DNA of 64,000 nt from Curvularia clavata (Eukaryota). Below are positions 41,501 to 60,720 of the stretch, in pieces; position 1 is the first letter of the stretch; every line of letters begins with the position of its first letter. The notes below the pieces were generated by a model. The model searched no databases. It was not told where the DNA came from and saw only the letters and a list, made by a program, of their open reading frames with translations. Both the position numbers and the translations under genes were made by a program. The stretch spans positions 3,596,001-3,660,000 of the forward strand of contig CP089275.1 of NCBI GenBank assembly GCA_023920165.1, read 5' to 3'.

Positions 41501-43584
41501 TGTCCACGAAATCCTAGTCTGCGCGCCGGGACAGGTACTGTTGTACAAGCAAACTTGTCTTGAGCCCCACGAACCTACCAATGTCCGCTCCTCAACGAGC
41601 AATCCTTCCGCATCCTGAGTTAAGAGGGTGCAAGGTTGCCATCATGTCACCTTGGACCTCTGTGTGACTTCGTAGTTGCCGCACGAAGTATACCAACTAC
41701 TTCTCTCGCCATAGCACTGGGAAAATGTTACAGTACTAGTAAAGTCTTCTACAATGACACAACATCCATCATCTCCGTTACTGCCATTCAAGTGAAATCT
41801 TGAGTGATGTCTTACTTTTTCCGTATTGGATCAAGTGTCGTGTGGTCACAAGATGAGTGTCGTGTCGTCATGTTCCAGCCGGCTGCTATACTGCCGCCTT
41901 GGGAGAACCCGCCAGTGACATTGACTCTAGGTTTGGTCTGAACTTAAGCCTCCGAAGCTTTCAGAGACCAACAACGCAATACTGGTTACGACTTTGGGTA
42001 GGTAATTAAACTCCGGTATTAGTGCACCACGTTCCCACTCCGCGAAACGTCTGCCGCAAGACTAGCGGCGTTTCAAACCCTCAGCGTGCATTAGGTTAAG
42101 TGACCATTTCTTGCGATTGACCCTGACGAACAATGATGTTGCTCATCCGGCTTTTCTCCCAGTTGACTTTGATTTGTAGGACCACGTTTTCATGCTTTCC
42201 AGATCAATCAACGTTCTCAGCAGAGTGCAGGACTGAGACCCTGATCAACACACCAATCAGCTCGTTCCTACTGAGCGGTTTGTTTCCCAAAGACATTCCT
42301 ATTCCTCGAACAACCTTCTTACATTCTGACGATTGTGTCTTTTCATCCTCCATATTTGTTGGACGCAACAATACGATATTGACGCCAGAAGCATGACAAT
42401 CGTCGATCCCAGCCCTGATGACGCGGCCCTTCATCTCTTTGCCTTGTCGAACTCTAGCGCTCAAAGGGCACTTGGAAGTCCAGAACAACGACTCATTCTC
42501 CATGCTGAAAAGGCCCACTTCATGGCCTCTTAGGCGCTTCACTTCCGTTTCTTGAAATTGCTTCGCCATTCACACCAGCCTTTTCGCTAGCATGGTCATA
42601 CATGGCTGCCTGCACAACGATAATGTGCAGTCAATCAGGCGTCAGCGCTTGGAAAATGCACGAATGAGGGGTTCGGTCGCGGCGTCTTTTGCTGCAATCG
42701 ATAGAGTCAGTCTATTCAAATCAAAGAAGAGTACAACCTATCAAGAACAGGGTATGAACATGGCCTGAAGACTATATCCTTTTTATTTCCGTACAGCCAG
42801 AAAAGTTGGAAGCAACGGCTTAAGGATCAACGTACCTCTCAAAGGTGCGACAGGTGATCACACTGGCAAAGGTACCCGGCCATCGAAACCAATCATATCT
42901 GCGTTCCTATCCGAACCATCCACCAAGCCACTGTGCTGTGTCGTTGGCCCCCAAAATCTCCCCGATATATCGCCGACACAATGCAGGTGAGGTCACTTCG
43001 TCACCCGCGCCTGGTGAACAGACAATACTTTGCAAAAACTGTTTCCACAAGTCCATAACGGCTGCATCACAGTCGCCTGACAAGTTCTTGACCTTTGGCC
43101 CCAAGTACACTTGATAGGTCTTTGAGCTGCCACAAAACACCATGCCACGCGAGTCGAGAAGGCTGCATTGCCAAGCCAACATCTTCGCTTACCCTTGAAA
43201 CCAGAACCAAAGCCCCGGGCGGTTATGCCCGTCTGCGAGCCGTCTGTAGTATACCTATCTCAGCCTTGCCCCACGTTTCCTTCGCCGAACAACCTGAAAG
43301 ATACGGACAACTGTATCCCCGCTTAACCTTTGACAGACAATATTTGGGGGGGGGGCTGTGTTGAGGCGCGGGGAATTAACTATGCAGGCAGATTGATTCG
43401 GCTGCTGGGCTTGATGCCTGGGGCATCTTTCTCAGAATGGGGGTTTAGCTGTAGACAAGGCTGTGGGGGAGTGTAGGTACTTAAGTACCGCCTGTTCGGC
43501 AATTATGGCGTCTTGGTTGACGTAGCGGTATCCGGATTCCCCTTGAACGAAGAAACGTATCAAACAGGACTGGAGCCTTTCAAG

Positions 43585-44908
43585 ATGGGTGTATTCAATC
43601 TTCTCCGTTCCTGTTGCTTGGGGCGACCCAAACAATACAAAGAATCTTTGGTTGAGTACTCGTATGGTAGGCTTATCACCTCTCCCTGATAACGTTGAAC
43701 TAAAGACTATCACAGTGCCATATGGTCCGCCGGTCAACGAAGTTGCAGACACTTCGGTAAAGGCAAATTTTGTAGAGTCCAAGCAGCCAGCTAAAGAGCC
43801 TACGCCTCCACCACATTACTCTGTAAACTCTCTATCCAAAGTACAGACGATAGTCTCCTCTGCTCCCACCAACGCAAGTCCTGCCCCCTCTTCCACAAAA
43901 GACAATGAGGAAAACAGCGAAGCCGTGTTCCGAGTCATTAAGCCGTTGCCCCAACGCCGTGACAAAAGAACAAGTGTAGCAGAGCAGAAGAGTCTGCTGC
44001 AGACACCTTTGCCTCCAAGCTTGTATGAGAAGTCAGCGGAGCCAGTAGCTCAGCAGGTCAAAGACGGGAAAGACGACGAAGCAGTAACTTCCAAGCCGGT
44101 GCAGCTGTTCGTCTTTCCAAAGTCGGATATCAACGTTGAAAACAATGTTGCGGTGGCTTCTTCGTCCACTACAATGACTACTACAACGACTCAGACGACA
44201 ACAACAGAAACGGCAACAGCATCGATAGCACTTGGTGCAAAAACTGCTGGAACTACCACCATCTTCGACCGGCTTGCCGCCAGCAACCCTCATCCTGTGT
44301 CTACTTCTACTCCTGCCACTCCGGTTCCTGTTCCTAATCCAACTCCCGCACCTATTCCCACACCCGCTCCCACACCTCCGAGAGGTAACCCTTATCTGAA
44401 CCTCGCGCTTCGCCCCGCTCCCACTAATCCCACCACACCCGCCAACACCTCTGCTCCCCTCCCCACCGCCAAATCAGTCATCCTTCGTCCTGACCCTCCC
44501 AAAACCACCACCGACATCACACCACCCAAGCCCGAGCCCCAAGCCGCCCCTTCCCCAGGCGTCCTCTGCCCCAAATGCTCCTCTCCCAACACCCCCCTGA
44601 TAACCCAAACCCGCAATCTCAACCACCTACGCCCCTACCACCTCTGCTCCAACACCTCCTGCCGCTCCTGGAACGGCTTCACCGACACTCGTGGCCTAGA
44701 TCGCCATCAACAATGCGACTGTAGCCCCTCGTACCCGATGCGGCTCGTGGCCATGAATAAGACAGACCAGTGGGGCAGGAGACAAGCGTTTTGGAGTTGT
44801 CAGTACAAGGCGTGTAGTGCATGGGGAGTTTGTCTAGATGACGAGGGAGACGAGAAGTGGTTTTCTAGGGGAGAGGTGGAGGCGATGGTGGAGGACGGAC
44901 GAATTTGA
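43585..44908 (+). CDS. Protein with two C-terminal GRF-type zinc fingers, Pro/Thr-rich linker and MG...CC N-terminus (intron 43667-43715)
   Basis: CPKC...NHLRPYHLCSNTSC and CDC...GRRQAFWSCQYKAC. The spliced N-terminus MGVFNLLRSCCLGRPKQYKESLVEYSY|VPYGP joins the 439-aa ORF frame. Confidence 0.75.
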
Positions 44909-45196: not shown

Positions 45197-46342
45197 TCAC
45201 CACTCCCAGAACATCTTGGTGTTCAATTTAATCGACGGACCCCTTAAGTACTTCTCCAGCGCCGCCTCACTCTTTTCCTTTCTACCTTTTGTGTCCTCTT
45301 CAGGCAGACGCCGATCCCTGTAGTACCACTCCTTAGGACTCTTCCTTTCCTCAACAATATACTCATCCATGAGACGCAGCTGCGCCAACTGGCGCATACT
45401 CCACGTTTCCCATCCGGGCATTTGGAATACAATACTCTGTTCGGTACTCGTGTTGGTCATTGCACTGTCATAGCATCTATGCAGCGAATTCGCCACCATT
45501 AGTGGTGGCTGATTTAAGAATGGCGTTATATCGAAAGAGTCTGCATGCGGATCTAGAGACTGACGCGGTCGACTATCAGCACGACGAACACGTGATTCCC
45601 AGGCGACATGACGTCGAAACGCCGCTAGCAGCAACCTACGACGACCTAAGTAGTGGCTGCGTAGGAACATGTAGATGGCCGCGTTCCTTTCTTCTGCGCT
45701 CTTGTTCGCTTCGATCTTTGGTAGAAAATCTTCCAAGAGTTTGTCGCGAAACTTTCGTGCCAACATTTCCTCTCGGAAGAGCCAGCTGAACAGTCTCCGC
45801 CACTTGAATACCAACAGCCAGGATTCGGGCCCGGTGTGCATACGGGCATAGGGAATCACGACATCGCTCACGATACCACCTTTTGTGAAGCCTTTGCTCA
45901 TTGTGCCTTCGCCCAGGCGAACGATGATTTGTTTTCCGCGGTCGTGTTTATATGGTGGTGAAGACTCAGGCGATATGACCTGGTCAACCCAATACTCCGC
46001 ATCGTCGCCAAGACGCATTCTCAAGGTATCTGCGCCTTGATCTGCTTCGAACGCTACGAATGCAGGAAGGCCATCCTTGTGCTCTTTTTCAAGCTCGTCG
46101 GTTCTACTTGAAGCAGACTGAAAATGGACAAAGTCGTCGAAGTCAACGTCGCCGATGCATACGGCGAACGAGAGCTTGGGAACCCAGAAGCCGTGGAAGT
46201 GCTGCTCGATTACAGTTCTGTGATAACGAGTAATAAAGCGGAGCTGAGTCCATTGGTAAGCGGGATCATCGTTGTGCAAGAAGATGAGAGATGTGATGAT
46301 GGTATCGATTAGCTCACGTGGTAGCTTGGAAAACAGTGACAT
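45197..46342 (-). CDS. F-box-like protein, lineage-specific
   Basis: N-terminal FSKLPRELIDTII F-box-like start; 381-aa intronless ORF. Confidence 0.65.
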   Translation of the reverse strand: MSLFSKLPRELIDTIITSLIFLHNDDPAYQWTQLRFITRYHRTVIEQHFHGFWVPKLSFAVCIGDVDFDDFVHFQSASSRTDELEKEHKDGLPAFVAFEADQGADTLRMRLGDDAEYWVDQVISPESSPPYKHDRGKQIIVRLGEGTMSKGFTKGGIVSDVVIPYARMHTGPESWLLVFKWRRLFSWLFREEMLARKFRDKLLEDFLPKIEANKSAEERNAAIYMFLRSHYLGRRRLLLAAFRRHVAWESRVRRADSRPRQSLDPHADSFDITPFLNQPPLMVANSLHRCYDSAMTNTSTEQSIVFQMPGWETWSMRQLAQLRLMDEYIVEERKSPKEWYYRDRRLPEEDTKGRKEKSEAALEKYLRGPSIKLNTKMFWEW

Positions 46343-46551
46343 TGCACAAAATATAAGAAGTTGAGTACAATATTGGGTTGAATATAGAGCTGAGTATAGG
46401 TAGGCGTTAATCTGTCCTTGTAACCCGGGAAAGTCTAGCCGGTTCCGCCATTTGCTAGACAGTAAACGCGTGACTATAACCCGCTAGGCCAATAGCAATT
46501 GTTGTTATTTAGCAGCATGGAAAGCAGACTCCTAACAACACCCTACAGCAG

Positions 46552-46800: not shown

Positions 46801-48337
46801 ATGTCTGTACCATACGACCGAGCCTTTGACCTGCTGAGCAATAGCCAGAATGGCCATATCCCAGCATCCAAGCGCATTCCCGCCATTGCTCGGCCATTCG
46901 TCAGCGAAAGAGCTGCGAAGACGCTCGATATCGTAAGTAGCTAAAAAAAGGAGACCGCAAACACATGCTTACACTCTGTCCAGGTAGAGAAGTTTGTCGA
47001 GGAGGAATGTATCCCAGCCGATGCTGTATACGTACGCCAGCTCGGCCAGACTGTAGAGGAGCGCTTTTCCGCACACCCATCGATTATCGAGGACCTCAAG
47101 AAGCGGGCACAAGAGCTCGGGCTGTGGAACATGTTCCTGCCCAAGGCACACTTCAAGGAGGGTGCTGGCTTCAGCAATCTGGAATACGGACTCATGGCCG
47201 AGTATCTGGGCAAGAGCCGAACTGCTTCCGAGGCGGTCAACTGCGCTGCCCCAGATACTGGCAACATGGAGGTTATTGCCAAGTACGGCAGCGAGGCACA
47301 GAAGAGACAGTGGCTTGATCCTCTGCTTCAAGGCAAGATCCGGTCAGCTTTCCTGATGACCGAGCCTCAGGTGGCATCGAGTGATGCTACCAACATTGAG
47401 ATGAGCATCAAGCGCGATGGCGACCACTATGTGCTCAACGGCCAGGTTCGTATTCTTTTTCTCACGTGTTCCCCTTTACATAGCTAATTCCGTCCAGAAA
47501 TGGTGGTCCTCCGGCATTGGCGACCCTCGCTGCAAGATTCTCATCGTTCTTGGAAAGACTGACCCCAACAACGCCGACAAGTACAAGCAGCAGTCGGTCA
47601 TTCTTGTCCCCAATGACACCCCTGGTGTTACCGTTCACCGCATGCTTTCGGTCATGGGTTTCGATGATGCGCCCCACGGTCACGGACACGTTACCTTTGA
47701 GAATGTCCGTGTGCCTGCCAGCAATATGGTGCTCGGCGAGGGTCGTGGATTCGAGATCATTCAAGGCCGTCTCGGCCCTGGACGTATCCACCACGCCATG
47801 AGGAGCATTGGCTCTGCTGAGAAGGCATTGGAGTGGTTCTTGGCCCGCATCAACGACGAGCGCAAGAAGCCTTTTGGACAGATGCTCAACCAGCACGGCA
47901 TCATGCTGGAGCGTGTGGCCCGAGCACGTATTGAGATTGACGCGGCCCGTCTTGCCGTGTGCAATGCTGCTATCCAGATTGACCAGACCAACGCCAAGGG
48001 CGCGCTCAAGGAGATTGCCGAGGTCAAGGTGCTTGTGCCAGAGGTCAACCTCAAAGTCATTGACTGGGCGATACAAGCATATGGTGGTGCTGGTGTTAGT
48101 CAAGAAACACCACTGGCGCAGATGTGGGCGTCGGGCAGGACAATGCGCATTGTCGACGGCCCAGACGAGGTTCATCTCCTACAGCTCGGCAGGAACGAGA
48201 ACAAGAGGGGTCCGGCACACAAGCAGAGGCTCGAGGCGCAGAAGAAGAAGGGCGAAGAGCTGTGCCGCAAGTACGGCATTGAGCCTAGGGATCCGCTGTA
48301 TCTTAACAGGAAGAGCGGAGAGGCCAGCAAGTTGTAG
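46801..48337 (+). CDS. Peroxisomal acyl-CoA dehydrogenase (ACAD10/11-like), 2 introns
   Basis: NCAAPDTGNME, SAFLMTEPQVASSDATN, KWWSSG, GRGFEIIQGRLGPGRIHH, RIVDGPDEVH; C-terminal PTS1 SKL*. Confidence 0.93.
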
Positions 48338-49129
48338 ATAGTTTCTTATCATACCATGTCTGGTAAATAAAATCCCATTAGCGCTGCATCATTATTCGAG
48401 AGAATATGCAATGACGTGAAGGTTGGTCTTGAGTCTGCTTCGGAACGGTTCCGAAGTTAGCGCCGAACGCGGAATTGTGAGCTAGTCTAGGAACGATAGG
48501 CGGTTGTATTCTTCTACTGAGCATTTTAGCACGATAAAGGAAAACGAAATATTATAACTAGTGTGATTCCTAAGAGTATCGTGAGCTATGCCTGCTACTA
48601 TGCGGTTCATGCCGTCGTGACTCCGCAGTTAAGACTGTCTGCTGCTTCGTGTTCAAGTCCGCAATGTAATAGCGGCACCGTACGTCTGTGCATAAACCAA
48701 CACCACCCTACGGACATCGTAATACACTCCTATAGCAAACAACAGTCTGTAGACAACGTTTTCTGCACGATCAGATCGCATCTTTAACACAAGGACCGCT
48801 TCTCGGTTTGGCTGTCGCACGATCATGCAATGTCAGTCTTGGCCCGTCAGCCTTGCGCTACTAAGCAGGTGGGCTGCGCCTCCTGCCGTGGGTGTTGGAG
48901 ATGCAGCCTGGCCCAACGTCCAGCCTGCTGCACTGCAACTCCTAGACTCTACCACTCCTCCTCATCTCTGAATTTTTAACCCGTTGTTTGACGTTTGCAA
49001 TATACCCAATAGCTAAGGCCTCTCTGCCCTGCGTGAGTGAGTCTCTAGTTGCCCTCGATTCCCTCAGCCTGCTTTGAAGCTTCGACGCTTGCCTCTAGCG
49101 CTCACACATACATACGCATACACATTCCG

Positions 49130-52100
49130 ATGCGACTGCTATACACTACGAGCGATGGGAGGTTTCAATGGACCGGGGATTTAATCGGGAAAAATATTCC
49201 CTCTTATGCGATCCTGTCGCACACCTGGAAAGAAGGGCAGGAGGTGACATTTGCCGACCTAAAAGATCTAGACAACGCTGCAGGTGATGAGATACGAAGC
49301 AAGGAGGGGTATCAGAAGCTTCACTTCTGCGCTCAACAAGCTAAGCAGGACGGTCTAAACTACTTCTGGGTGGACACCTGCTGTATCGACAAGGCAAACA
49401 ACACAGAGCTCTCAGAGGCGATTAACTCTATGTTTCGTTGGTACCAGAACGCAAAGAAGTGCTATGTCTTTCTTTCAGATGTTGAAAACGACACTCTCGA
49501 GTGCGAATTGGCGTTTAGAAAGAGCAGGTGGTTCAGCAGAGGCTGGACGCTCCAGGAACTACTAGCACCACATTCTGTCGAGTTCTTCTCTAAAGATGGA
49601 GCGCGACTGGGAGACAAGGAGTCGCTTAGGCAGACTCTACACGAGATTACTGGAATACCTATCAAGGCCCTATCAGGGAGCGAGTTGTCTGAGTTTGACG
49701 TTGCTGAGCGGTTCTCTTGGGCAGCAAATCGCCAGACGACACGCGAAGAAGACGGTGCATACTGTCTACTAGGCATATTCGACATTCATCTACCTTTAAT
49801 CTACGGTGAAGGCAGAGAGAAGGCACTAAAACGATTGAGAAAGGAGATCGAGGTTGCTTCCGTGGATGTCAGAGGTGCTGAGATTCGCAGCCAAGATCAA
49901 GAGAAGAGGCTGAGCAAAATCCACAGCTGGCTTTCGGCTCCCGACCCATCCACGAACTACCAAAAAGCGCACAAGCAGCGGCAGGCTGAGACTGGACTCT
50001 GGCTGTTGGATAGTACATCCTTCGCTCAATGGAAGGCAGGTGCAGCGTCGCGACTATGGCTGTATGGGATCCCAGGATGTGGAAAGACTATCCTAAGCTC
50101 TACAGTCATCGAGCACCTACTACAACATTGCGAGAGTGACGCTAGTATAGTAACAGCGTTCTTCTACTTCGACTTCAATGATACGCAGAAGCAGGACCCA
50201 GAGCTAATGCTCCGCTCGTTGCTCCGCCAACTCTTCCAGCGTTTGGCTACAGTACCTAAGGGCATCGACGCATTACTCTCAGTTTGTGAAAACGGACAGC
50301 GACAGCCATCACTGCATGCGCTTCTGGAGCTGACACCGGAGGTGATGCGGCAGTTTACGCATGTCTATATTGTTCTTGATGCGCTTGACGAATGCACACA
50401 ACGTCAAGAATTAATGGACATACTTGAAATGGTAGCTGCGTGGCAGCTAGATAACGTACATCTACTCATGACTAGCCGGAAAGAGCGGGATATTGAGAGC
50501 TCTTTAGAGAGTTACATCAAAAAGGAAGACACTGTCTGTCTTCAAAGAGATGTTGTGGATAGTGATATACAACGATACGTTCGACAAAGACTATCTAATG
50601 ATAAGACTCTGGCAAAATGGAACAAAGATGCTGCCGTCAGGCAAGAGATTGAGAATGCATTAATGCAGGGCGCCCACGGGATGTACGTGCAGACATCTAG
50701 TGACGCCCGAAGCTAAAGCTAATAATAGTGTAGGTTTCGATGGGCGGTATGTCAGCTTGACATGTTAGCACAGTGTCGCAATCGAGCAATGCTGCGCAGG
50801 TCATTGGCTACTTTACCACAAACACTAGACCAAACATACGACCGTATTCTGTCTAGTATAAGCGACCAAGATTGCGACTTCGCGACGCGCATCTTGCAGT
50901 GGCTGGTATTTTCTACGCGGCCGATGTCAGTTGAAGAGATTGCTGAGGTTGTCGCTATCGATGTGGCGCGCGACCCAGCGTTTGACCGCGATGAAGTGCT
51001 AGAAGACCCGCTAGAAGCGTTGAACATCTGCTCTAGTCTTGTCTCTATCACGAAAAATGAAGAGAGCGAAAGTATTATCGCGCTAGCGCATTATTCCGTA
51101 CAGGAGTATCTTGTATCCGAGAGAATCAAACAAGGACAGGCAAAACAGTACAGTATGGAAGAGGTCAAATGCCACAATACAATAGCAGAAGGCTGTTTGA
51201 AATATTTAATGCAGTTCCAGCAACCAATATCAACGCATATTATTCAGACGTACGCACTTGCAAGATATGCAGCAGAGTTTTGGAGCATCCATCTTCAAAA
51301 AGCAGGTGACGAGACAGATGGGGCGAGTCAGGTAGCAATGAGCTTGATGTCAAAAGAACAACCCGCATATCTCAGCTGGATCCGGTTATTTGATCCAGAT
51401 TCGCCATGGGACAGCCCCCGCCTAGACAGACGTCTAAATGGTATGGCTACGCCGCTTTATTATGCTGCATTGCTGGGCTTGAGCACAATTACGGGAACAT
51501 TGCTAGCTGAAGGCGCCGACGTCAACGCCCAGGGTGGAGCGTACGGCAACGCACTATCCGCAGCTTCATCTTGTGGCCACGAGCAAGTGGTCAAGATACT
51601 ACTTGACGCGGGCGCCGACGTTAACGCCCAGGGTGGATGGTACGGCAACGCACTATCCGCAGCTTCATATTATGGCCTCGAGCAAGTAGTCAAGATACTG
51701 CTTGACGCGGGCGCCGACGTCAACGCCCAAGGTGGAAAGTACGGCAACGCACTATCCGCAGCTTCATATTATGGCCTCGAGCAAGTGGTCAAGATACTGC
51801 TTGACGCGGGCGCCGACGTCAACGCCCAAGGTGGAAAGTACGGCAACGCACTATCCGCAGCTTCATATTATGGCCTCGAGCAAGTGGTCAAGATACTGCT
51901 TGACGCGGGCGCCGACGTCAACGCCCAGAGTGGATGGTACGGCAATGCACTATCCGCAGCTTCATCTCGTGGCCACGAGCAAGTGGTCAAGATACTGCTT
52001 GACGCGGGCGCCGACGTCAACGCCCAGGGTGGAGAGTACGGCAACGCACTCTACGCAGCTTCATATTATGGCCACGAGCACGTGGTCAAGATACTGCTTG

Positions 52101-52747
52101 ACGTGGGCGCCGACGTCAACGCCCAAGGTGGAGAGTGCGACAACGCACTATCCGCAGCTTCATCTAGAGGCCACGAGCAAGTGGTCAAGATGCTGCTTGA
52201 CAAGGGCGCCAATATTCAAGTCCCGCAAGGGCGCTACGGCAATGTATTGCAGCTACCTGCATATATGTGCAAAGTTACTATGCTCAAACTTTTGCTATCA
52301 AAAGTCGATACCACACACCTCCAAGATCCATATAATCGGACGCTAATCTGGTGGGCTGCAGCTGGTGGCAGGACTGAGAACATTGAACTCCTTGTTACCC
52401 AGTTTAATCACGACCCTCGAGTCCCTGACAAATTTGGGCGTACGCCATACTGGGTTGCTACGAAGAAAGGGCAAAGTGCAGTATTGGAACTCCTGTCGGA
52501 AAAGTATGGAATAACTGGTCCTGGGGAACCAGTGTTGCCTGTTGATAGTGATGATGATAGTGATGGTGATGAGTGGCTAAGTTGTGACGTCTGTACCTCG
52601 CATATAAGTGCAAGGAGCTTGGCTTACCACTGCCGATATTGCCTTGACGGGGATTGGGATGTTTGCCAAGACTGTTGGGAAAGAGGTGCCAGATGTGCGG
52701 ATGATGCGCACACTTTGGTCAAGTTTACAAGAAAAGATCGAGAGTAG
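49130..52747 (+). CDS. Fungal NLR: HET effector - NACHT - ankyrin repeats - C-terminal ZZ-type zinc finger (intron 50683-50733)
   Basis: HET: YAILSHTW, YFWVDTCCIDK, WFSRGWTLQELLAP. NACHT: GIPGCGKT Walker A, IVLDALDEC Walker B, spliced GM|FRWAVCQL, LPQTLDQTYDRIL, LAHYSVQEYL. ANK array, then CDVC..YHCRYC..WDVCQDC..C..H. Confidence 0.95.
51512..52204 (+). repeat. Seven near-identical 99-bp tandem repeats encoding ankyrin units (GADVNAQGGxYGNALSAASxxGxEQVVKILLDA)
   Basis: Units start at 51512, 51611, 51710, 51809, 51908, 52007 and 52106. Units 3 and 4 appear identical at nucleotide level. Confidence 0.95.
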
Positions 52748-52825
52748 GTTGAGACAACGGACGAGACGGCTGACGATTAGCCACTGCTCAGAGGCAGCAC
52801 CCACTGTTTTTTATGTGCAATGGGA

Positions 52826-53127
52826 ATTCCGTGGACTTACGGCGCCCTCGCGCATGACGTCCATACTAGCAAGATAGACGTTACAAGATTCGAAAAAATA
52901 GAACTCAAATCCTGCACGACAACAGAATATTTATAGCCCAGGCAGAGGCAAAACATATAAGATGGCTTACTAGAGACTCAACTACAAAACCTGCGTCAAC
53001 TATCATAATTGAGTTCACCAGACCGGTAGATGCAAACAAGATTATCGACAAAGGGTTGATCTGGGAAGGCGAAGTCCTCCGGTGCGAACCATATGAAAAG
53101 CAGTGCTGAATGGAGGAATACTTCAAG
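52826..53127 (+). mobile_element. Decayed non-LTR retrotransposon (Tad1-like LINE) gag/ORF1 fragment
   Basis: Translates with a frameshift as TYGALAHDVHTSKIDVTRFE / QILHDNRIFIAQAEAKHIRWLTRDSTTKPASTIIIEFTRPVDANKIIDKGLIWEGEVLRCEPYEKQC*MEEYFK. This matches the fungal LINE ORF1 region just before the CCHC knuckle; it has an in-frame stop and the knuckle is lost. Confidence 0.75.
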
Positions 53128-53514
53128 TCCCTCGCGGCGAGCACCTTGGCGATAAAGGAGACACAAAGAACGTCTAAGTAACTCCAAGTAGTTGACGCAG
53201 CCTACATACATAGCGGTTCTAAATACGCATATTTATAAATACTTCTAGAAATCTATTTGTATACCCTACGCCAATTTTTATTATAATAGAATATAGTTAC
53301 TCGTCTTTATATTCTACTCGTCTATAGGGTACGGTAACCTGTAAGATAGAAAGAGGATTACATTTTCTACTCACTGACTAATAGAACATCAGTAGCAGGC
53401 TATGCTGATTTACAAATAGTATAGATTTTGGAGTTGGGCTAGTCCGTTTAATATCACGTGACAGAGCTCACAAACCAACAATGCGGCTCCAACTGCACCA
53501 GACGACTCCACGCC

Positions 53515-54639
53515 ATGTCGTCTCACAGTAGGGGGGGCTCCATTGCCTCGGGCCTCTACTCCAAATCGACGCCCAATCTGCCGACCCTGCAGACGTTTGA
53601 TGGAGACGGTCAGCAACAACACAAGGTTGCATCCCCCCTGCGGTCCGCTGCCCGCTCCGTGCCGGATCCGTTGTCGCCTACCTCTAACAGTGCTCTGTCT
53701 GAGACGGCTTCTGTAGAAGACTACCAGGATGATTACGATGACGACGAAGACGAGGAGACTTTCGTGGTAGAAGGCATGGACGGCGAGTCTTCCGACGACG
53801 ACGAAGAGCGCGCGCCTGTGTCTCGCGGCCTCTACACATCCAAGTCGTATACGCATCTTCCACAGCACGCACAAACAGGCACTGCTCTCTTCCCGCCCTT
53901 TTATAATCGACCGCCGAACCCTCTCCCACCGTCGCCGTCGCTCACCTCACTGCTCCGCCCTGCCTTCAGCCGACCGACGTCGAGGCCTACGACACCAGAC
54001 TCGTCCGATGTAGATTCATCCACCAGGGCTGGCTCACATAATGGCACCAGCACGCCCACATCCAACACGACGAACCTAGCCAACTCGGCACGGCATGCGC
54101 CGACGGTACCGCGGGCGTCGCCGAAGGTACCCACGTACGAATACTACGGCTTTGCCCTGTACCTAGGCAGTTCCGCCGCCTTCCTGATGTACATCCTATG
54201 GGCGTACGTGCCAGCTCCAATGCTACATCAGATGGGTATACACTACTATCCCAATCGGTGGTGGGCGCTCGCTGTGCCCTGCTGGCTGGTGGTGCTAGTC
54301 ATCTACATTTATGTTGCGCTTGCAAGCTACAACACGCGCTACCTCACGCTTCCCATGAGTAGCTGCGAGAATCTCGTCGATGAATGCGCTCAGATTGCGG
54401 CAGTGGACAAGAGGACAGGCCAAATAGTACGGGACGCTAGGTTGCTGGTAGAACAGCTGCAGGAAAAGGACGGTAGCAGAGCAAGCGCACCTCCCAGCCG
54501 CAGAGGTTCCTTGTTTGGGTACCAGTTCGATGCATCAAGCGAGGTAGATTGGAAGAGCCTGTGGAGCATCGGTACGGACGCCGTGATGGACGTGCCGATA
54601 GGTGGGGTTTGTGAAATCTTATACGGAAGCGATGAGTAA
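53515..54639 (+). CDS. GPI19: GPI-GlcNAc transferase subunit P (PIG-P) with long disordered N-terminus
   Basis: PKVPTYEYYGFALYL...YILWAYVP...GIHYYPNRWWALAVP; C-terminal DAVMDVPIGGVCEILY. Confidence 0.88.
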   Translation: MSSHSRGGSIASGLYSKSTPNLPTLQTFDGDGQQQHKVASPLRSAARSVPDPLSPTSNSALSETASVEDYQDDYDDDEDEETFVVEGMDGESSDDDEERAPVSRGLYTSKSYTHLPQHAQTGTALFPPFYNRPPNPLPPSPSLTSLLRPAFSRPTSRPTTPDSSDVDSSTRAGSHNGTSTPTSNTTNLANSARHAPTVPRASPKVPTYEYYGFALYLGSSAAFLMYILWAYVPAPMLHQMGIHYYPNRWWALAVPCWLVVLVIYIYVALASYNTRYLTLPMSSCENLVDECAQIAAVDKRTGQIVRDARLLVEQLQEKDGSRASAPPSRRGSLFGYQFDASSEVDWKSLWSIGTDAVMDVPIGGVCEILYGSDE

Positions 54640-55098
54640 AAAGCATGCAATTCGTCATTCTTACCACTTGACAGTCATCAGGCCATTGGATGAATTGATT
54701 CGCTATCTGGGCCGTCGCCGTCCCTGGACAAACATGGTTTTGCGCGGAAAAGCTTGTCACGCCCTAGGACTCAACCCCACTTGTATGCCCCTCTCCAACC
54801 TCCCACAGCAGCATGTAGTATCTGCACATTGGGAAAGCGCCCCGCTCCGTTGCAGGCAGATGTTGCTTGGATTGGACGGGCTGATAGCTGGTGATATCCA
54901 AAAAACGTCCGGAGCTTACCTTATGTTTACTTAGCGGCGTGCATATGACAAGACAGTAGTATAAGATTGAGGCATATTCCCGTGGTTGTTTCCGTATCCC
55001 ACCTCTTCCCACGAGGCTCGCCACTTTGCTCTGGGTTCAATTGCTTCATCTATCTTCTCGTGCAGCTTCGTTGGTCGAAAAGTCTCCAATTGCCCATC

Positions 55099-56555
55099 AT
55101 GAAGTCTGTCGTTGCTTTCTCCGCCCTCTCCATGCTTGCTGGTGCCGAGGCTGCCGAGACTGTCCTGGGAGCTTATGTCTTCCATCGCCATGGTGACCGT
55201 ACACCAAAGGCTCTTGCTCCCACTAACTTGACTACGCTTGGCTACGAGCAGGTCTACTCCTCTGGCCAGTACTACCGGTCCCGCTATCTGTCCGGCGACT
55301 CCAAAATTCGCGGTATCAACGAGGACGAAGTCAAGCTGTCCCAGCTCCAAGTTCAAGCTCCCGTGGACAATGTTCTCCAGAACTCGGCGATGGGCTTCCT
55401 CCAGGGCCTGTACCCACCCGTACAGACTGTCCAGACTCTTGCCAGTGGTCAAAACGTTCAGGCTCCCATGGACGGATACCAGCTCATCCCTGTCAACACC
55501 ATTGAGACTGGTGCTGGCTCAGAGGACTCTGGCTGGCTCCAGGACGCTTCCAGCTGCCAAAACGCAAAGGCGAGTTCAAACTCGTACTTTGATAGCAAGG
55601 AATACAAGGACCTTGCTTCCAGCACCACCGACTTTTACAAGTCTCTCGTTCCTTCCATCAACAACGTCATCAGCAATGATCAGGTGAACTACAAGAACGC
55701 CTATGTCGGTATGTTGTGATTCCATCTCGCGACTTGCTATGCATGCTAACCGCACCCCAAGTCTACGACATCATCCACGTAGCTGAGATCCACAACTCCA
55801 GCATCCCCAACTCTGATGTCCTTGACAACTCGACTCTGCATCAGCTCACTGCCCTCGCCAACGCCCACGAATGGGGCCTCGCCTATAACGCGAGTGACAA
55901 CGTCCGCGCCATTGCGGGTATGCAGCTCGCCGGCGAAGTCCTCTCGTACATGAACAACATCATCAGCTCTTCCGGCTCCAAGAAACTCGGCATCCAATTC
56001 GGCGCCTACGCCACTTTCCTCTCCTTCTTCGGCCTCGCCGATCTGCCCCGTGCCAGCGTCGACTTCACCGGCATCGTCGACTATGCTAGTTCCATGTCCT
56101 TTGAGCTCTTCACCACCGCTGACGTGGGTACCGCGTTCCCTGCTGAAAAGGACCTGCAGGTACGCTTCTTGTTCCACAATGGAACTGCGAGCAACACAAG
56201 TGAACCGACTGTCTACCCGCTTTTCGGTGGCAATGCGAATGCCCTGGCGTGGACTGAGTTCAAGGAGAAGATGGGCGAGTTCGCGGTTACCTCGACGCAG
56301 GAGTGGTGCGGAAAGTGCGGAAACACGGCTGGTGCTTGCGCGGCATTTGTGAAGAACGATGCCCCTGCTACTCAGCAGCATGCTAGCAGTCATGAACTGT
56401 CTCCTGCTATTGGTGGTGTTATCGGTGCTTTTGTCACTCTCGCAGTTGTCCTGGGCTCACTGGCGGCGCTCATGTTGCTTGGTGGGTTCAGGCTCGTGAG
56501 CAAGAAGGCCCTGCAGAATCGGGCGACTGACGTTAACGTTGAGCCTAAGGCTTAG
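55099..56555 (+). CDS. Histidine acid phosphatase, signal peptide plus C-terminal TM anchor (intron 55709-55761)
   Basis: MKSVVAFSALSMLAGAEA signal, HRHGDRTP catalytic motif, AIGGVIGAFVTLAVVLG TM segment. Confidence 0.9.
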
Positions 56556-56850
56556 AGTGAGCGTGGAAAGGGCAATATGTAAGGGTTATGTGTGTTGGTA
56601 AAGAACAGGTGTATATATTATGACGTTGACGAATGAACGAAACAATCAATACTATACCACTTTTGAAAACCCTCAGTGCCATGAGTTCACTCAGCCCAAG
56701 GATAGATGAATAAATCAAAATGTGCGCATCATCTCGTTCGTTAAAGTCTCATTTCGACATGCCATGTATCTACGTAAATAAACCTTACCCTGCCATTTTC
56801 CCATATATACCCACACCCCCTAAACGCCATCCCATGCAAACGTACACACT

Positions 56851-58361
56851 CTAGGCCTTCAGCACACTAAAGTGATCCTTGGGCTTAACAATCGGCGCAC
56901 CCAAGCCCTTCCTGACCTCCTCAAGCTGCTCAATCCCACTCTGCTGCTTTCCGCGCTTAACTCTCCGCTTACCCTGCGTGTGGTGGCTACCCAGGAAATC
57001 GTCCATGATGCTGTCGAAATCAGAGCGAAGGAGAGGTGGGGCCTGGCTGCTGGTAGTAGACCACTGGCTGATGCCTGTAATACCGCTGACTTTGCTCATG
57101 CCAGAGACCATGGAGGCATCGTCGGGGAAGTCGAAGGTATCGTCGGCGTATTCTTCTTCGATTTTATCGAAGCGCTGGTCAAGGAGGGTGAGGCCTTCGG
57201 TGCGGTGCAGGGCTGAGGACGACATGGAGTAGCCCGAAGTCGAGGTCAAGGCGCCTTTGCGCTTCTTCTTACGGCCGCCAGAGGTTAGGGCAGAAGCGCC
57301 TGTGATGAAGGATTGTGCGTCGCTGGGCGCGGCGGGCTTGTTGGGCTTGGCGGCTTTGACGTCTTCTTTGAATTTCTTGAATTCCTTCAGGTACGCCATA
57401 TCATCTGCGTCTGCAGGTGCTGGCGCAGCGTCGGGCGCAGGAAGGGATGAAGGGTCTGTTGGGTCTTCGGATGACTTCTTCGCCTTTAGTTTGGGCGAAG
57501 ATGCTTTAATTGTGTCGTCACTTTCCCAGCCGGCATCTTCTTCGTCGAGGAAGCGGTCCATGGTGTCTCTGTCGTCGTCGTCAAAGTCGACACTGGCATC
57601 CCATTCCCTTTGGTCGACTTCGTAGCCGTCTTTGGCCAATTCGTTGAAAATGTCTTCCTCGTCGTCAACATATGCTTCGTCCTCGAGCGCCTCGAGCACT
57701 TCGCGCAGCCTAGGGTCCATGTCGGGCTGGAAACCTGCAATGGCGTCTGGGATGTTCTGCTGGTCCTGGTACGTTGTTTTTCGTACAAATTCCGAGGGTG
57801 CCATGTCCTCGCCAAACAAGTCGCTCACGCTGCTAATGTTGCTGCTCACACTCATATCCGCCTGGCTTCTACTGTCGTTCAGCGAGGCGTCGCGCAGCAT
57901 GTCGGCCAAGTCCATCTTTTGCTTTCCCTTCTTCTCAGGCTTGGCCTCGACAAAGTATGCATCGCCTCCGCCAGTACCCAAGTCGCGCATGTGTTGCATG
58001 TAGTCGTACTCAGTGTCATCGTAGAAGATGCCATAGTTGGCTGCTTCACCCTCGTTGCTCCGCACTTTGGACCCATACTCGCTCTCTAGATCGCGTCTTG
58101 ACTTAATCTTGCTCCGCCCTGTCGCAGCCGAATACTGCGACGCCCGCGAACTTCCTGCAGGCTCTGATACTTCGCGCTGGTTTGGCGCAATGGTCTCGGC
58201 AAAGACCATCTGCGGGGCATCTTCATCGTGGATGCGCGGGTCATTTTGGGCACGGTGGACGAGGCGGAAATTGGTCGCGGTTTTCTTATCGCTGTCGCGG
58301 GGTCAGTGGGGTATCGCAACAAGCGCAGTTTGTGTGCGTACATGAACTTTCGGCGAGGCAT
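56851..58361 (-). CDS. LTV1: Low-temperature viability protein Ltv1 (pre-40S assembly/export factor), 1 intron
   Basis: Spliced MPRRKFI|DKKTATNFRLVHRAQNDP, GEAANYGIFYDDTEYDYMQHMRDL, GFQPDMDPRLREVLEALED, SMSSSALHRTEGLTLLD. Confidence 0.93.
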
Positions 58362-58607
58362 TTTGCAGAATTTGGTATAACTCGAGACGTGTGTTTTGGG
58401 AGTGGCAACTGTTGGCGGTGGAAGTCTGGGGAATCGCGCTTACAAACGAAAGGGTCTTTGGCGTCGGGCGCTCAAAAAATAATTTAGGCGAGTGGAACCA
58501 GTGAATGACGTGGGGCAACTGTTGGTTCGCAACTTTCTCCTCCGACTCACAACCCCTCTTCTGGGACAAAACACCACAATCACAAGTTATTGGAGTTACC
58601 AGCAAAC

Positions 58608-60720
58608 ATGGTGCTCGCAAAATCCAAGAAGAGCGTCGGGCTGGGCAACAGCCTGATGAACGACCGGTTCAGCAAGGGTAAAGGCGCTGACATGCGGAGG
58701 GGCAACTTTAACCAGGGAATCGAGCGGACAGGCCAAAATGGCGAAAAGGTATGTGAAGTCCAGGTTTGAGTCTGTCGCGAACTCTAGGAAAATAGATTGC
58801 CATTCAGAAGACTCACGAAATATCGCATGCTAACTTCCATAGTACATTACCAATGAGAAGAAGGAGGCGTCGTGGGTAAAGATGCGCTCTGTGACCGAAC
58901 AGGGCGCTCTTGACGACTTTCTTTCGACCGCAGAATTGGCTGGTACCGACTTCACGGCTGAAAAGATGAATAACGTCAAGATCATACATAAGGACCAGAA
59001 GAACCCGTATCTCCTGTCAGCGGCTGAGGAGCGCAACGTCACTCGGAAACACAAGGAGAACAGGAATAGGTTGACTGTACCGAGGCGACCAAAGTGGGAT
59101 GCGCAGACCACTCCGCAAGAGTTGGATGAATTAGAGAGAGGAGCACTGCTACAGTGGCGAAGAGGCCTGGCGGAGCTGCAAGAGAATAATGACCTGCTCA
59201 TGACACCGTTTGAGCGCAATCTCGAAGTCTGGAGGCAGTTGTGGCGAGTCATCGAGCGATCTGATCTGGTGGTTCAAATTGTGGATGCACGAAACCCGCT
59301 GATGTTCCGATCCGAGGATTTGGAAGACTACGTCAAGGAGGTGGACCCCAAGAAGAACAATTTGCTGCTGGTCAACAAGGCAGACATGATGACGCTTGAG
59401 CAGCGAACGATTTGGGCCAACTACTTCACCGAAGCTGGCATCAACTTCAAGTTCTTTTCGGCTGAATTGGCCAAGGAGATGAATGAGGCTCGTGGATTGA
59501 CAGAGCCGAGCGATGAATCAGGCGATTCAGAGGATTACGACGACGAAGATGATAGTGAGGAGGATGTTGACTCAGAAGACGATAAGCTTGCAGAGGAGGC
59601 TAAGAAGATTGACCTCCAAGACAAGCAAGAAGAGAAGGAAAAGTGGGTGGACGAAGAGACTGTTGATGTGCCTGGCCAAAGCCGCGCTGAAGCAGACGGT
59701 GATGAGCGGACGCGGATACTTACCACAGAGGACCTCGAAGCGCTGTTTCTGCAGCATGCACCAGACATCGACACTGGCCCAAACGGCGAGCCTCGCAAGA
59801 CATCAATTGGTCTCGTCGGTTACCCCAACGTTGGAAAGTCGTCTACAATCAACGCTTTGATCGGCGCGAAGAAGGTATCCGTGTCTGCAACGCCAGGAAA
59901 AACGAAGCACTTCCAGACTATCCATCTCAGCGAGAAGGTTGTCCTGTGTGATTGCCCTGGTCTTGTATTTCCCAACTTTGCGACAACCAAGGCCGAGCTG
60001 GTGTGTGCAGGTGTCCTGCCAATTGACCAACTGCGAGAGTACACTGGCCCTGCAGGTCTTGTTGCCAGGCGGATTCCCCAGCGATTCCTCGAGGCGCTCT
60101 ATGGAATGAAAATTCATCCCCGTCCGCTTGAGGAGGGTGGCACTGGTATTCCTACCTCTGAAGAATTGCTGCGAGCCTTTGCCATTGCTCGAGGCTTCTC
60201 CACCCAGGGTCTAGGTCAACCGGACGAGTCGCGAGCCGCGCGATACATCCTGAAGGACTACGTTAAGGGCAAGATCCTTTTCTGTCACCCACCTCCGACT
60301 GAGCCTCCGATTGACGAGAAGTATTTCAACCGCGAACTCTACGATGCCAACCATCTGCCTGCCAAGCGTCGCCACCACCCCCTTGCTAATGTCTCCGACA
60401 GCATGTCTCTCGCAGGCGCATCTCATGCGGAAGGGTCACTAATGGATGACGATTTTGACGGCGGCGTGCCTATTCAAGGTGAAAAGACGCAGCGCATGGA
60501 CAAGCGTTTCTTCGGTCCAGGACAAGGAATGGCCAAGATCAGCCAGCCATTCCACTACAAGTACAGCGAACAGGGCAAAGAGCTGAGCGGCAGGAAAGCT
60601 AAAATGATGGCAGCACTGGAGCAGGACGTTGATCCCTCAGAGATGAAGATGAACAGCAAAAAGCATTTCAAGGCGAATAAGAGGAAAGCGAAGAAGGTGA
60701 GATCAGAGTACGTTGACTGA
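58608..60720 (+). CDS. LSG1: Large-subunit GTPase 1, circularly permuted (intron 58749-58842)
   Basis: TPFERNLEVWRQLWRVIERSD, VDARNP, NKAD, GYPNVGKSS, TPGKTKHFQT, DCPGLVFP. Confidence 0.96.

What the first reader, a model, noticed from the sequence alone, without database searches (positions are those of the whole stretch)
51512..52204. NLR sensor array with patchwork hypervariable codons: signs of repeat shuffling generating recognition specificity
Seen: seven 99-bp ankyrin units are almost identical, even at silent sites, and most differences fall at a few codons. The position after QGG reads A/W/K/K/W/E/E (GCG/TGG/AAG/AAG/TGG/GAG/GAG). The dipeptide after AAS reads SC/YY/YY/YY/SR/YY/SR, and the next variable residue H/L/L/L/H/H/H. 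All four combinations W-YY, W-SR, E-YY and E-SR occur, a four-gamete pattern that simple duplication alone does not explain. Known: fungal NLRs with high-internal-conservation repeats (e.g. Podospora het-d/het-e WD40) change ligand specificity by repeat gain, loss and exchange. Inference: these sites fall at the beta-hairpin tip and inner helix, the ankyrin binding face, so this looks like an actively diversifying non-self or allorecognition sensor.
Basis: partly seen in the sequence, partly recalled or inferred. Interest (0 to 1): 0.8.

Follow-up and report, generated by a model that had tools for sequence, protein, structure and literature searches.

The report
Fungal NLR with shuffled ankyrin repeats
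This is a fungal immune-receptor gene whose near-identical ankyrin repeats differ mainly at three binding-surface positions and have been mixed by recombination, a pattern that is real here but was already described for fungal receptors of this kind in 2014.

Summary
Seven 99-bp ankyrin units (91% DNA, 85% protein identity) lie in an intact, spliced 1188-aa HET-NACHT-ankyrin NLR gene of a Pleosporales fungus, probably a Curvularia. The codons are as listed. One correction: the four named codons carry 47% of pairwise differences, not most, but 5 of the 6 shared variants. Eight site pairs are incompatible, all between the left and right halves of the unit and three involving a silent site, so crossovers inside units are the best reading. 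Codons 10, 20 and 21 sit at the hairpin tip and the end of the inner helix, match the positions that vary in a DARPin binder, and are the most variable in eight paralogous arrays; codon 23 is no standard binding position. Relatives show repeat gain, loss and reordering. All this was published for fungal ANK NLRs (Dyrka 2014). Allorecognition is not shown, and no recent exchange with paralogs was found. ZZ-tailed fungal NLRs are also reported. Verdict: new member of a known kind.

The parts
49130..52747 (+). NLR gene, 1188 aa, two exons, HET-NACHT-winged helix-ankyrin-ZZ-like; reading frame intact
   Evidence: ORFs, splice and translation, Pfam
49205..49495 (+). HET domain (PF06985 match, residues 26-122), the presumed cell-death effector
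   Evidence: E 2e-13, 51.4 bits, cut-off 22.5; covers 93 of 146 model positions
49991..50599 (+). NACHT/NPHP3_N nucleotide-binding domain, Walker A GIPGCGKT at residue 313, Walker B IVLDALDE at 414
   Evidence: PF24883 E 4.5e-43; PF05729 E 1.7e-11; motifs
50683..50733 (+). 51-nt GT-AG intron
   Evidence: predicted; skipped in contigs of runs X3 and X7 (two studies), not in DNA runs X1 and X2
50879..51130 (+). winged-helix region of the NOD module
   Evidence: PF22939 E 2.5e-5, 25.1 bits, just under the cut-off of 27
51449..51511 (+). divergent first (capping) ankyrin repeat
   Evidence: sequence
51512..52204 (+). seven high-identity 99-bp ankyrin units; variable codons 10, 20, 21 (unit 1: 51539-51541 and 51569-51574) and 23; units 3 and 4 identical
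52205..52510 (+). three divergent ankyrin repeats, conserved between species (motif WWAAAGG invariant in 15 of 15 aligned rows)
52540..52575 (+). acidic, low-confidence linker
   Evidence: sequence; pLDDT under 50 at model residues 243-254
52583..52711 (+). ZZ-like zinc finger: three CxxC pairs plus Cys and His; three Asp at the places of p62 D129, D147, D149
   Evidence: each match alone is weak (below Pfam cut-off; PDB E 0.02-0.17)
48484..49130 (+). upstream non-coding DNA shared (75-82%) with the closest paralog G000:C2:731k, so the two arose by a duplication that included the promoter region

Best explanation
The gene encodes a fungal NLR immune receptor with a HET effector, a NACHT switch and an ankyrin sensor of the high-internal-conservation class. 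Shown here: the architecture, splicing, near-identity of the seven units within the gene but not between genes, a left/right mosaic of variants, and amino-acid change concentrated at codons 10, 20 and 21, which lie at the hairpin tip and the end of the inner helix. Inferred: misaligned units cross over or convert one another inside the gene, which keeps the scaffold uniform, changes unit number and recombines hairpin variants with helix variants; selection keeps the new binding-face residues; each array is thus a different concave surface. From established knowledge of HET-D/E/R, binding of a ligand would switch the NACHT domain on, oligomerise the receptor and let the HET domains trigger cell death. 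The ligand is more probably a non-self or modified-self protein in general immunity than a proven het partner. The conserved ankyrin-ZZ tail caps the array and may be a second, invariant binding site.
For: Domains above cut-off; Walker A and B present; intron spliced in two RNA-like runs. Scaffold identity (five variable codons left out) 95% within the array against at most 89% to any paralog unit. Eight incompatible site pairs, all between nt 21/28/29 and nt 59/62/68, none within a block, three with silent nt 21; the best of all 945 trees needs 28 steps against a minimum of 25; the shifted register is also incompatible in 6 of 9 pairs. pN 0.49 at codons 10, 20, 21 against pS 0.078 overall and pN 0.047 elsewhere. 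The same three codons rank first in 8 paralogous arrays (0.81, 0.78, 0.65) and in the mean of 22 homologous arrays (0.72, 0.68, 0.65). Ungapped alignment to DARPin 6MOL puts them on positions that vary between its repeats; AlphaFold model with pLDDT 82 places them in the hairpin turn and the last turn of helix 1. Pyrenophora-labelled relatives identical before the array have 14, 15, 18 and 19 reordered units. Same pattern reported by Dyrka 2014.
Against: Only seven units, one allele read in full; whole-array pN/pS is about 1.1 (0.088/0.078) and no likelihood test of selection was run. Three extra steps could be recurrent mutation at selected codons. In only 9 of the 22 homologous arrays were the three most variable positions all among 10, 11, 20, 21, and these arrays include alleles of one gene. 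No side-chain accessibility was computed. Copy-number change of this gene was not observed. No ligand, cell death or incompatibility was tested.
Confidence: 0.8

Rival explanations
1. It is specifically a het (vegetative incompatibility) gene: the array recognises allelic forms of one self protein, as HET-D/E do with HET-C, and alleles are kept by balancing selection.
For: HET effector as in HET-D/E/R; a NACHT-ankyrin NLR is part of the Botrytis vic locus. Runs X3 and X7, under the same organism code as X1 and X2, carry an allele 3.6-4.9% different in DNA, with 18 of the 38 listed coding changes non-synonymous.
Against: Only about 5 of 125 HET-domain genes act in allorecognition in Podospora. 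No control gene was laid for X3 and X7, so the divergence may be genome-wide (another lineage or a loose species label). No linked polymorphic partner was identified; the neighbours are housekeeping genes.
Confidence: 0.15
2. The array is a neutral product of recent slippage: units duplicated and drifted, the variable codons are merely tolerant surface positions, and the four-gamete pattern comes from recurrent mutation.
For: Whole-array pN/pS near 1; surface positions of ankyrins tolerate change (established knowledge); only three homoplastic steps; the two Arg codons differ, showing that similar residues can arise twice; 3 of the 6 silent columns are C-to-T or G-to-A in CpA/TpG context.
Against: pN at codons 10, 20, 21 is about six times pS, which relaxed constraint alone does not give; codon 10 takes four states with multi-base differences while other exposed positions are invariant; incompatibility includes a silent site and follows position along the unit. 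RIP indices of the array (TpA/ApT 1.0, substrate index 1.08) show at most a mild signal.
Confidence: 0.1
3. Variants were imported from paralogous NLR arrays by ectopic gene conversion, as for the Podospora WD40 repeats.
For: At least 15 other places in the genome carry the same 33-residue unit type. The ZZ tail is scattered over the NACHT tree, and P0017 and P0018 share their first 742 residues but end in different tails, which suggests crossovers between arrays in the family.
Against: No unit of 13 paralogous loci is over 84.8% identical to a unit here; the longest identical in-register run is 23 nt; none of four variant patches is found in a paralog and a fifth 9-nt patch only once. The genome search scores only the best candidates, so a donor may be missed.
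Confidence: 0.1
4. Unit number and order are an assembly artefact.
For: Units 3 and 4 are identical within a 140-nt exact repeat (from the columns); short-read assemblies of such arrays are unreliable; no listed contig spans units 2-5.
Against: The assembly is near chromosome level (8 contigs); the frame is intact; one X1 contig carries units 6-7 (E-YY then E-SR) in order with the flank, without differences, and pieces covering the YY-L patch of unit 2 (0 differences in 79 nt) and the SR-H patch of unit 5 (1 in 67) occur in the other allele's runs.
Confidence: 0.05

Closest known systems
Fungal NLRs with highly conserved (HIC) ankyrin repeats, e.g. [quoted passage not shown] 2014, PMC4986451)
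   Same: NACHT plus 33-residue ANK units over 85% alike; hypervariable sites in the beta-hairpin and inner helix of the concave face; unit numbers from 7 upward.
   Different: Effector is HET, not PNP_UDP; a divergent-ankyrin plus ZZ-like tail follows the array; repeat-number polymorphism and positive selection were measured there and only inferred here.
Podospora HNWD receptors HET-D, HET-E, HET-R (HET-NACHT-WD40)
   Same: HET effector, NACHT switch, near-identical sensor repeats with a few hypervariable positions, divergent repeats after the conserved ones.
   Different: Sensor is an open ankyrin solenoid, not a WD40 propeller; no allorecognition partner known; no identical units shared with paralogs here.
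Pleosporales HET-NACHT-ANK family (unnamed; database labels such as 'vegetative incompatibility protein HET-E-1' are automatic)
   Same: Up to 78% identity over HET-NACHT; 86 of the 120 best hits carry the same unit type and 42 have five or more units.
   Different: Only 12 of those 120 end in the ZZ-like finger; no allele above 90% was found in the protein collection.
Sordariales NLRs with C-terminal treble-clef zinc fingers (Bonometti et al. 2025, PMC12258605)
   Same: ZZ-type finger after canonical C-terminal repeats; 17 ZZ cases, 16 treble-clef fingers next to repeats; proposed as extra sensor domains.
   Different: Here in Pleosporales, joined to an HIC array and a HET effector; the finger scores below the Pfam ZZ cut-off.
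Botrytis cinerea BCVIC1 (bioRxiv 10.1101/2022.04.03.486892)
   Same: NACHT-ankyrin NLR whose ankyrin region is the variable part, at a mapped incompatibility locus.
   Different: Lipase-like effector; 'internal conservation' does not occur in that text; linked syntaxin partner, of which there is no sign here.

Membership tests
Fungal NLR (NACHT type) | NACHT domain with Walker A GxxxxGK[ST] and Walker B aspartate | tested here: met
   PF05729 44.7 bits (cut-off 26.7), PF24883 147.7 bits; GIPGCGKT and IVLDALDE
Fungal NLR (NACHT type) | N-terminal effector domain | tested here: met
   HET PF06985 51.4 bits, cut-off 22.5
Fungal NLR (NACHT type) | C-terminal superstructure-forming repeats | tested here: met
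   Ank families; ankyrin fold, TM 0.87 to DARPin 6MOI by target length
Fungal NLR (NACHT type) | Ligand-triggered oligomerisation and cell death | not testable with these tools
   needs experiments
HIC NLRs (Dyrka 2014; Ament-Velasquez and Saupe 2026) | Over 85% identity over at least 100 residues, or Psim of at least 0.7 | tested here: met
   87.4% over 198 residues at offset 33; mean identity to consensus 0.905 (own calculation, not T-REKS)
HIC NLRs (Dyrka 2014; Ament-Velasquez and Saupe 2026) | Hypervariable sites on the concave face (hairpin, inner helix) | tested here: met
   codons 10, 20, 21 by DARPin alignment and model secondary structure; codon 23 is not on a standard binding position; accessibility not computed
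HIC NLRs (Dyrka 2014; Ament-Velasquez and Saupe 2026) | Positive selection at those sites | tested here: inconclusive
   pN 0.49 against pS 0.078 by counting; no likelihood test, seven recombining units
HIC NLRs (Dyrka 2014; Ament-Velasquez and Saupe 2026) | Repeat-number polymorphism between isolates | tested here: inconclusive
   contigs cannot span the array; seen in Pyrenophora-labelled relatives
HNWD family | WD40 sensor repeats | tested here: not met
   ankyrin only
het / vic allorecognition genes | Allelic difference causes incompatibility on fusion | not testable with these tools
   needs genetics
het / vic allorecognition genes | Deeply diverged, balanced alleles | tested here: inconclusive
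   second allele 3.6-4.9% different; no control locus
ZZ zinc finger (PF00569) | Pfam score above cut-off | tested here: not met
   12.7 bits against 21.4; ZZ_ADA2 16.4 against 27.5
ZZ zinc finger (PF00569) | Three CxxC pairs with D-aromatic-D-hydrophobic before the third, and likeness to solved ZZ domains | tested here: met
   invariant Cys pattern; 20 of 22 PDB hits are KCMF1, p62, HERC2 or a fission-yeast ZZ protein, at E 0.03-0.17 (that KCMF1 and p62 hold ZZ domains is known, not read from the call); Atlas top clusters carry PF00569, score 0.90

The most novel reading that the evidence does not exclude
The receptor has two sensors of opposite kind: a fast-shuffling ankyrin surface and a fixed ankyrin-ZZ cassette whose finger keeps the three aspartates that bind a free N-terminal amine in p62 (D129, D147, D149), so it could detect new N-termini made by proteolysis or arginylation. 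The ankyrin array would also serve as the crossover point at which whole C-terminal cassettes are swapped between paralogs, which would explain why the ZZ tail is scattered over the NACHT tree and why two records with an identical N-terminal 742 residues end differently.
Probability: 0.12. Interest if true: 0.6.

Novelty: new member of a known kind. Interest (0 to 1): 0.22.

Why it matters
As it stands it is one more clean example of a known diversity generator: a natural DARPin-like library in a fungal immune receptor. It widens the case to Pleosporales HET-NACHT-ANK genes, and with only seven units and three variable positions it is a handy model for finding the ligand of an ankyrin NLR; I saw none named for an HIC ankyrin NLR in the sections read. 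If the ZZ tail proved to read free N-termini, it would give a first concrete ligand class for an integrated domain of a fungal NLR.

Tried and rejected
Paralog donor for the variant patches: none found among 13 paralogous loci; one further locus gave no intact unit and one match had no locus. Heavy RIP as the source of variation: array indices near neutral. Single-sequence AlphaFold model (pLDDT 54.5) did not form the hairpins and was set aside for the alignment-based model. Foldseek of the model returned only ankyrin proteins in the rows shown and says nothing on the finger. An alternative 42-nt intron (50687-50728) also keeps the frame but the RNA-like contigs show the 51-nt one. No run is on record as RNA; X3 and X7 are taken as cDNA only because their contigs lack the intron. 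Contig depth over the array was not used as copy number. The joint 52212 to 51575 in X3 and X7 may be an extra unit type of the other allele or a paralog; not used. The differences of X3 and X7 inside the array were cut from the listing (40 of 198 rows shown), so their units could not be read. The protein search found no allele above 78%. Paper search for a ZZ-type finger with NACHT and ankyrin as exact terms found nothing, but a looser search found Bonometti 2025, which reports it; Dyrka 2014 does not mention zinc fingers in its main text. A search with Curvularia listed 15 papers, none of which holds that word. Two DARPin papers gave no numbered list of randomised positions, so the mapping rests, (randomised positions lie on the concave face) and on recall. 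Earlier findings: nothing for this genome or sequence. No complex prediction was run, as no partner is known.
Full report
Verdict. The array is the sensor of a fungal HET-NACHT-ankyrin NLR with high internal conservation (HIC). Dyrka et al. 2014 described near-identical ANK repeats, repeat-number polymorphism and selected sites on the hairpin and inner helix in such receptors (PMC4986451; abstract and sections 12, 13, 17 read).

The gene. It runs from 49130 to 52747 on the + strand with one 51-nt intron (50683-50733) and encodes 1188 residues. Pfam gives HET (E 2e-13), NPHP3_N/NACHT (E 4.5e-43 and 1.7e-11), a weak winged-helix match and ankyrins. Walker A and B are present. Contigs of two runs from two studies (X3, X7) skip exactly this intron, and the two DNA runs laid (X1, X2) do not, so the gene is transcribed and spliced in at least the allele those runs carry. 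The best protein hits are labelled as Pleosporales genera. A paralog in this genome matches a protein labelled Curvularia clavata at 100% over 932 residues, so the organism is probably that species.

The observation. The seven units and their codons are as stated. Mean identity is 91.4% in DNA and 85.1% in protein; 87.4% over 198 residues meets the published HIC rule of 85% over 100. Of 21 variable columns, 6 carry a variant shared by two or more units, and 5 of these lie in codons 10, 20, 21 and 23; the sixth is silent (nt 21). The four codons hold 83 of 178 pairwise differences, so 'most' overstates it. The two SR units use different Arg codons.

Recombination. Eight pairs of sites are incompatible, all between the left block (nt 21, 28, 29) and the right block (nt 59, 62, 68); none of the six pairs within a block is. 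Three of the eight involve the silent site. The best of 945 trees needs 28 steps against a minimum of 25. Reading the units in a shifted register does not remove the conflict (6 of 9 pairs). Unequal crossover or conversion with break points inside units is the simplest cause; note that duplications in shifted register belong to the same process, so this is not a separate mechanism from repeat gain and loss. With seven units and three extra steps, recurrent mutation at selected codons is not excluded.

Selection and structure. pN at codons 10, 20, 21 is 0.49, against pS 0.078 over the unit and pN 0.047 elsewhere; over the whole array pN/pS is about 1.1. These are counts on non-independent pairs, not a test. 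The three codons are also the most variable in the 8 paralogous arrays of seven or more units (0.81, 0.78, 0.65; codon 23 fourth with 0.51) and in the mean of 22 homologous arrays chosen from 143 proteins (0.72, 0.68, 0.65; codon 23 ninth with 0.28), though only 9 of those 22 have their top three all among 10, 11, 20, 21. The array aligns without gaps to DARPin 6MOL, where positions 10, 20 and 21 differ between repeats and position 23 is the constant His; DARPins bind through randomised positions on the concave face (PMC8229355, passages). An AlphaFold model of units 4-7 and the tail (15 sequences, pLDDT 82) puts codon 10 between the hairpin strands, codons 20-21 in the last turn of helix 1 and codon 23 in the turn between the helices. 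Accessibility was not computed.

Paralogs. The DNA search gave 31 matches, which fall in this gene and 15 other places; 13 of these gave intact units. No paralog unit exceeds 84.8% identity and the longest identical run is 23 nt. With five variable codons left out, units are 95% alike within the array and at most 89% to any paralog unit, while the flanks of the closest paralog are 75-82% alike. Homogenisation thus works within the gene; recent exchange between genes was not found, in line with the three Podospora ANK genes (PMC13449251; abstract, first parts of sections 6 and 7, passages). The closest paralog (C2:731k, 82% over HET-NACHT, shared upstream DNA) has 22 units and a short tail.

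Variation between isolates. X1 and X2 show no difference in their long listed pieces of the gene, and either may be the source of the assembly; one X1 contig spans units 6-7 with the flank. X3 and X7, under the same organism code, differ by 61 of 1702 and 40 of 820 bases before the array (X3); 18 of the 38 listed coding changes are non-silent. Their array pieces include one identical over 79 nt to the YY-L part of unit 2, one with 1 difference in 67 over the SR-H part of unit 5, and others with 5-6 differences in 68-115 nt. No control gene was laid and no contig spans the array, so neither balancing selection nor copy-number change is shown. Short-read assemblies of HIC arrays are unreliable (PMC12222747, abstract). 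In relatives the change is visible: four Pyrenophora-labelled proteins with 0-1 differences in the first 790 residues carry 14, 15, 18 and 19 units in different orders, and P0018 and P0065 share their last 250 residues with 8 and 10 units; two of the four are partial records on 8.6-kb contigs.

The tail. After the array come three divergent ankyrins, an acidic linker and a Cys-rich domain. The 170-residue tail has 26 relatives, most at 43-55% identity over its whole length, and one paralog here, whose six units are not HIC. The finger is ZZ-like: below the Pfam cut-off, but the best PDB hits are ZZ domains (20 of 22 with a profile, E 0.03-0.17) and the top Atlas clusters carry PF00569. It occurs in 12 of the 120 best HET-NACHT relatives. 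On a NACHT tree of 78 of those 120 (rows with WD40 or TPR sensors, partial cover or low rank left out) plus this gene, the 13 ZZ-bearing rows are rejected as one clade (p-AU 1e-81, quick tree); repeated loss explains this as well as swapping. P0017 (ZZ tail, one record) and P0018 (short tail) are identical for 742 residues, which may be a swap or a misassembly. In p62 the N-terminal Arg is bound by D129, N132, D147 and D149 (PMC6197226, passages); by the alignment the three aspartates are kept here and in 32, 30 and 30 of 32 relatives, while N132 is mostly Thr. These aspartates are common in ZZ domains generally (recalled), so this is a lead. ZZ fingers next to C-terminal repeats of fungal NLRs are already reported and proposed as sensors (PMC12258605, passages).

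Mechanism. Shown: architecture, splicing, HIC, mosaic, location of the variable residues. Inferred: unequal recombination within the gene keeps the scaffold uniform and recombines hairpin and helix variants, and selection keeps new binding faces. From known families: ligand binding activates NACHT and the HET domain triggers death; the HET domain suffices for death and is remotely TIR-like, but only about 5 of 125 HET genes act in allorecognition in Podospora (PMC10197012, passages). A NACHT-ankyrin NLR does lie at the Botrytis vic locus (bioRxiv 10.1101/2022.04.03.486892, passages). General non-self sensing is therefore more likely than a proven het role.

Limits. No supplements were read; those of Dyrka 2014 and Bonometti 2025 may list HET/NACHT/ANK counts and ZZ architectures that bear on how rare this layout is. 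Earlier AI notes on ZZ-bearing fungal NLRs in other genomes were not checked and are not used as support.

Scores. Interest 0.22; new member of a known kind. Most novel reading not excluded: a two-sensor receptor whose ZZ cassette reads free N-termini and is swapped through the array (probability 0.12, interest 0.6 if true).

Noticed in passing
window 52963-53110: A 48-codon open stretch 215 bases behind the NLR stop, followed by AT-rich DNA (GC 0.40, TpA/ApT 1.22), looks from recall like a scrap of a LINE ORF1. No Pfam hit, no second copy in the genome, Atlas hits only 0.76-0.81 (DUF4780, PRE_C2HC): a lead only.
   Followed up: partly
G000:C2:727800-733200 (L003-L006): Closest paralog: 82% over HET-NACHT, shared upstream DNA, 22 ankyrin units with two interleaved unit types and four identical units near the end, short tail without the finger.
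   Followed up: partly
G000:C4:873900-877000 (L019, L022): An array of 31 units of the same type, the longest seen in this genome.
   Followed up: no
G000:C1:578749-582157 (L032): Paralog with the same ankyrin-ZZ tail (50%) but six units that are not near-identical (59% DNA): a low-conservation sister of this gene.
   Followed up: partly
runs X3 and X7 on window 48900-53100: A second allele 3.6-4.9% different across the whole gene, with 6-7 gaps in the 3' part, under the same organism code.
   Followed up: partly
L035 (G000:C3:3402743-3402925, - strand): A non-NLR protein with several ZZ-like fingers and an SH3-like end (labels by eye) matches the NLR finger at 33% (E 5e-6); a possible source of the integrated finger.
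   Followed up: no
window 45197-46483 (-): Open frame of 428 codons without any Pfam match, between a GRF-like zinc-ribbon gene (43547-44908) and an acyl-CoA dehydrogenase gene (46801-48337).
   Followed up: no
window 53512-60720: Downstream neighbours are housekeeping genes: PIG-P, a histidine phosphatase, LTV1-like and an MMR_HSR1 GTPase; no NLR cluster or obvious partner gene.
   Followed up: partly
PDB 6NE1 chain B: A designed Frizzled binder is filed under the name 'Pfs, NACHT and Ankyrin domain protein' and matches this array at E 1.7e-35.
   Followed up: no
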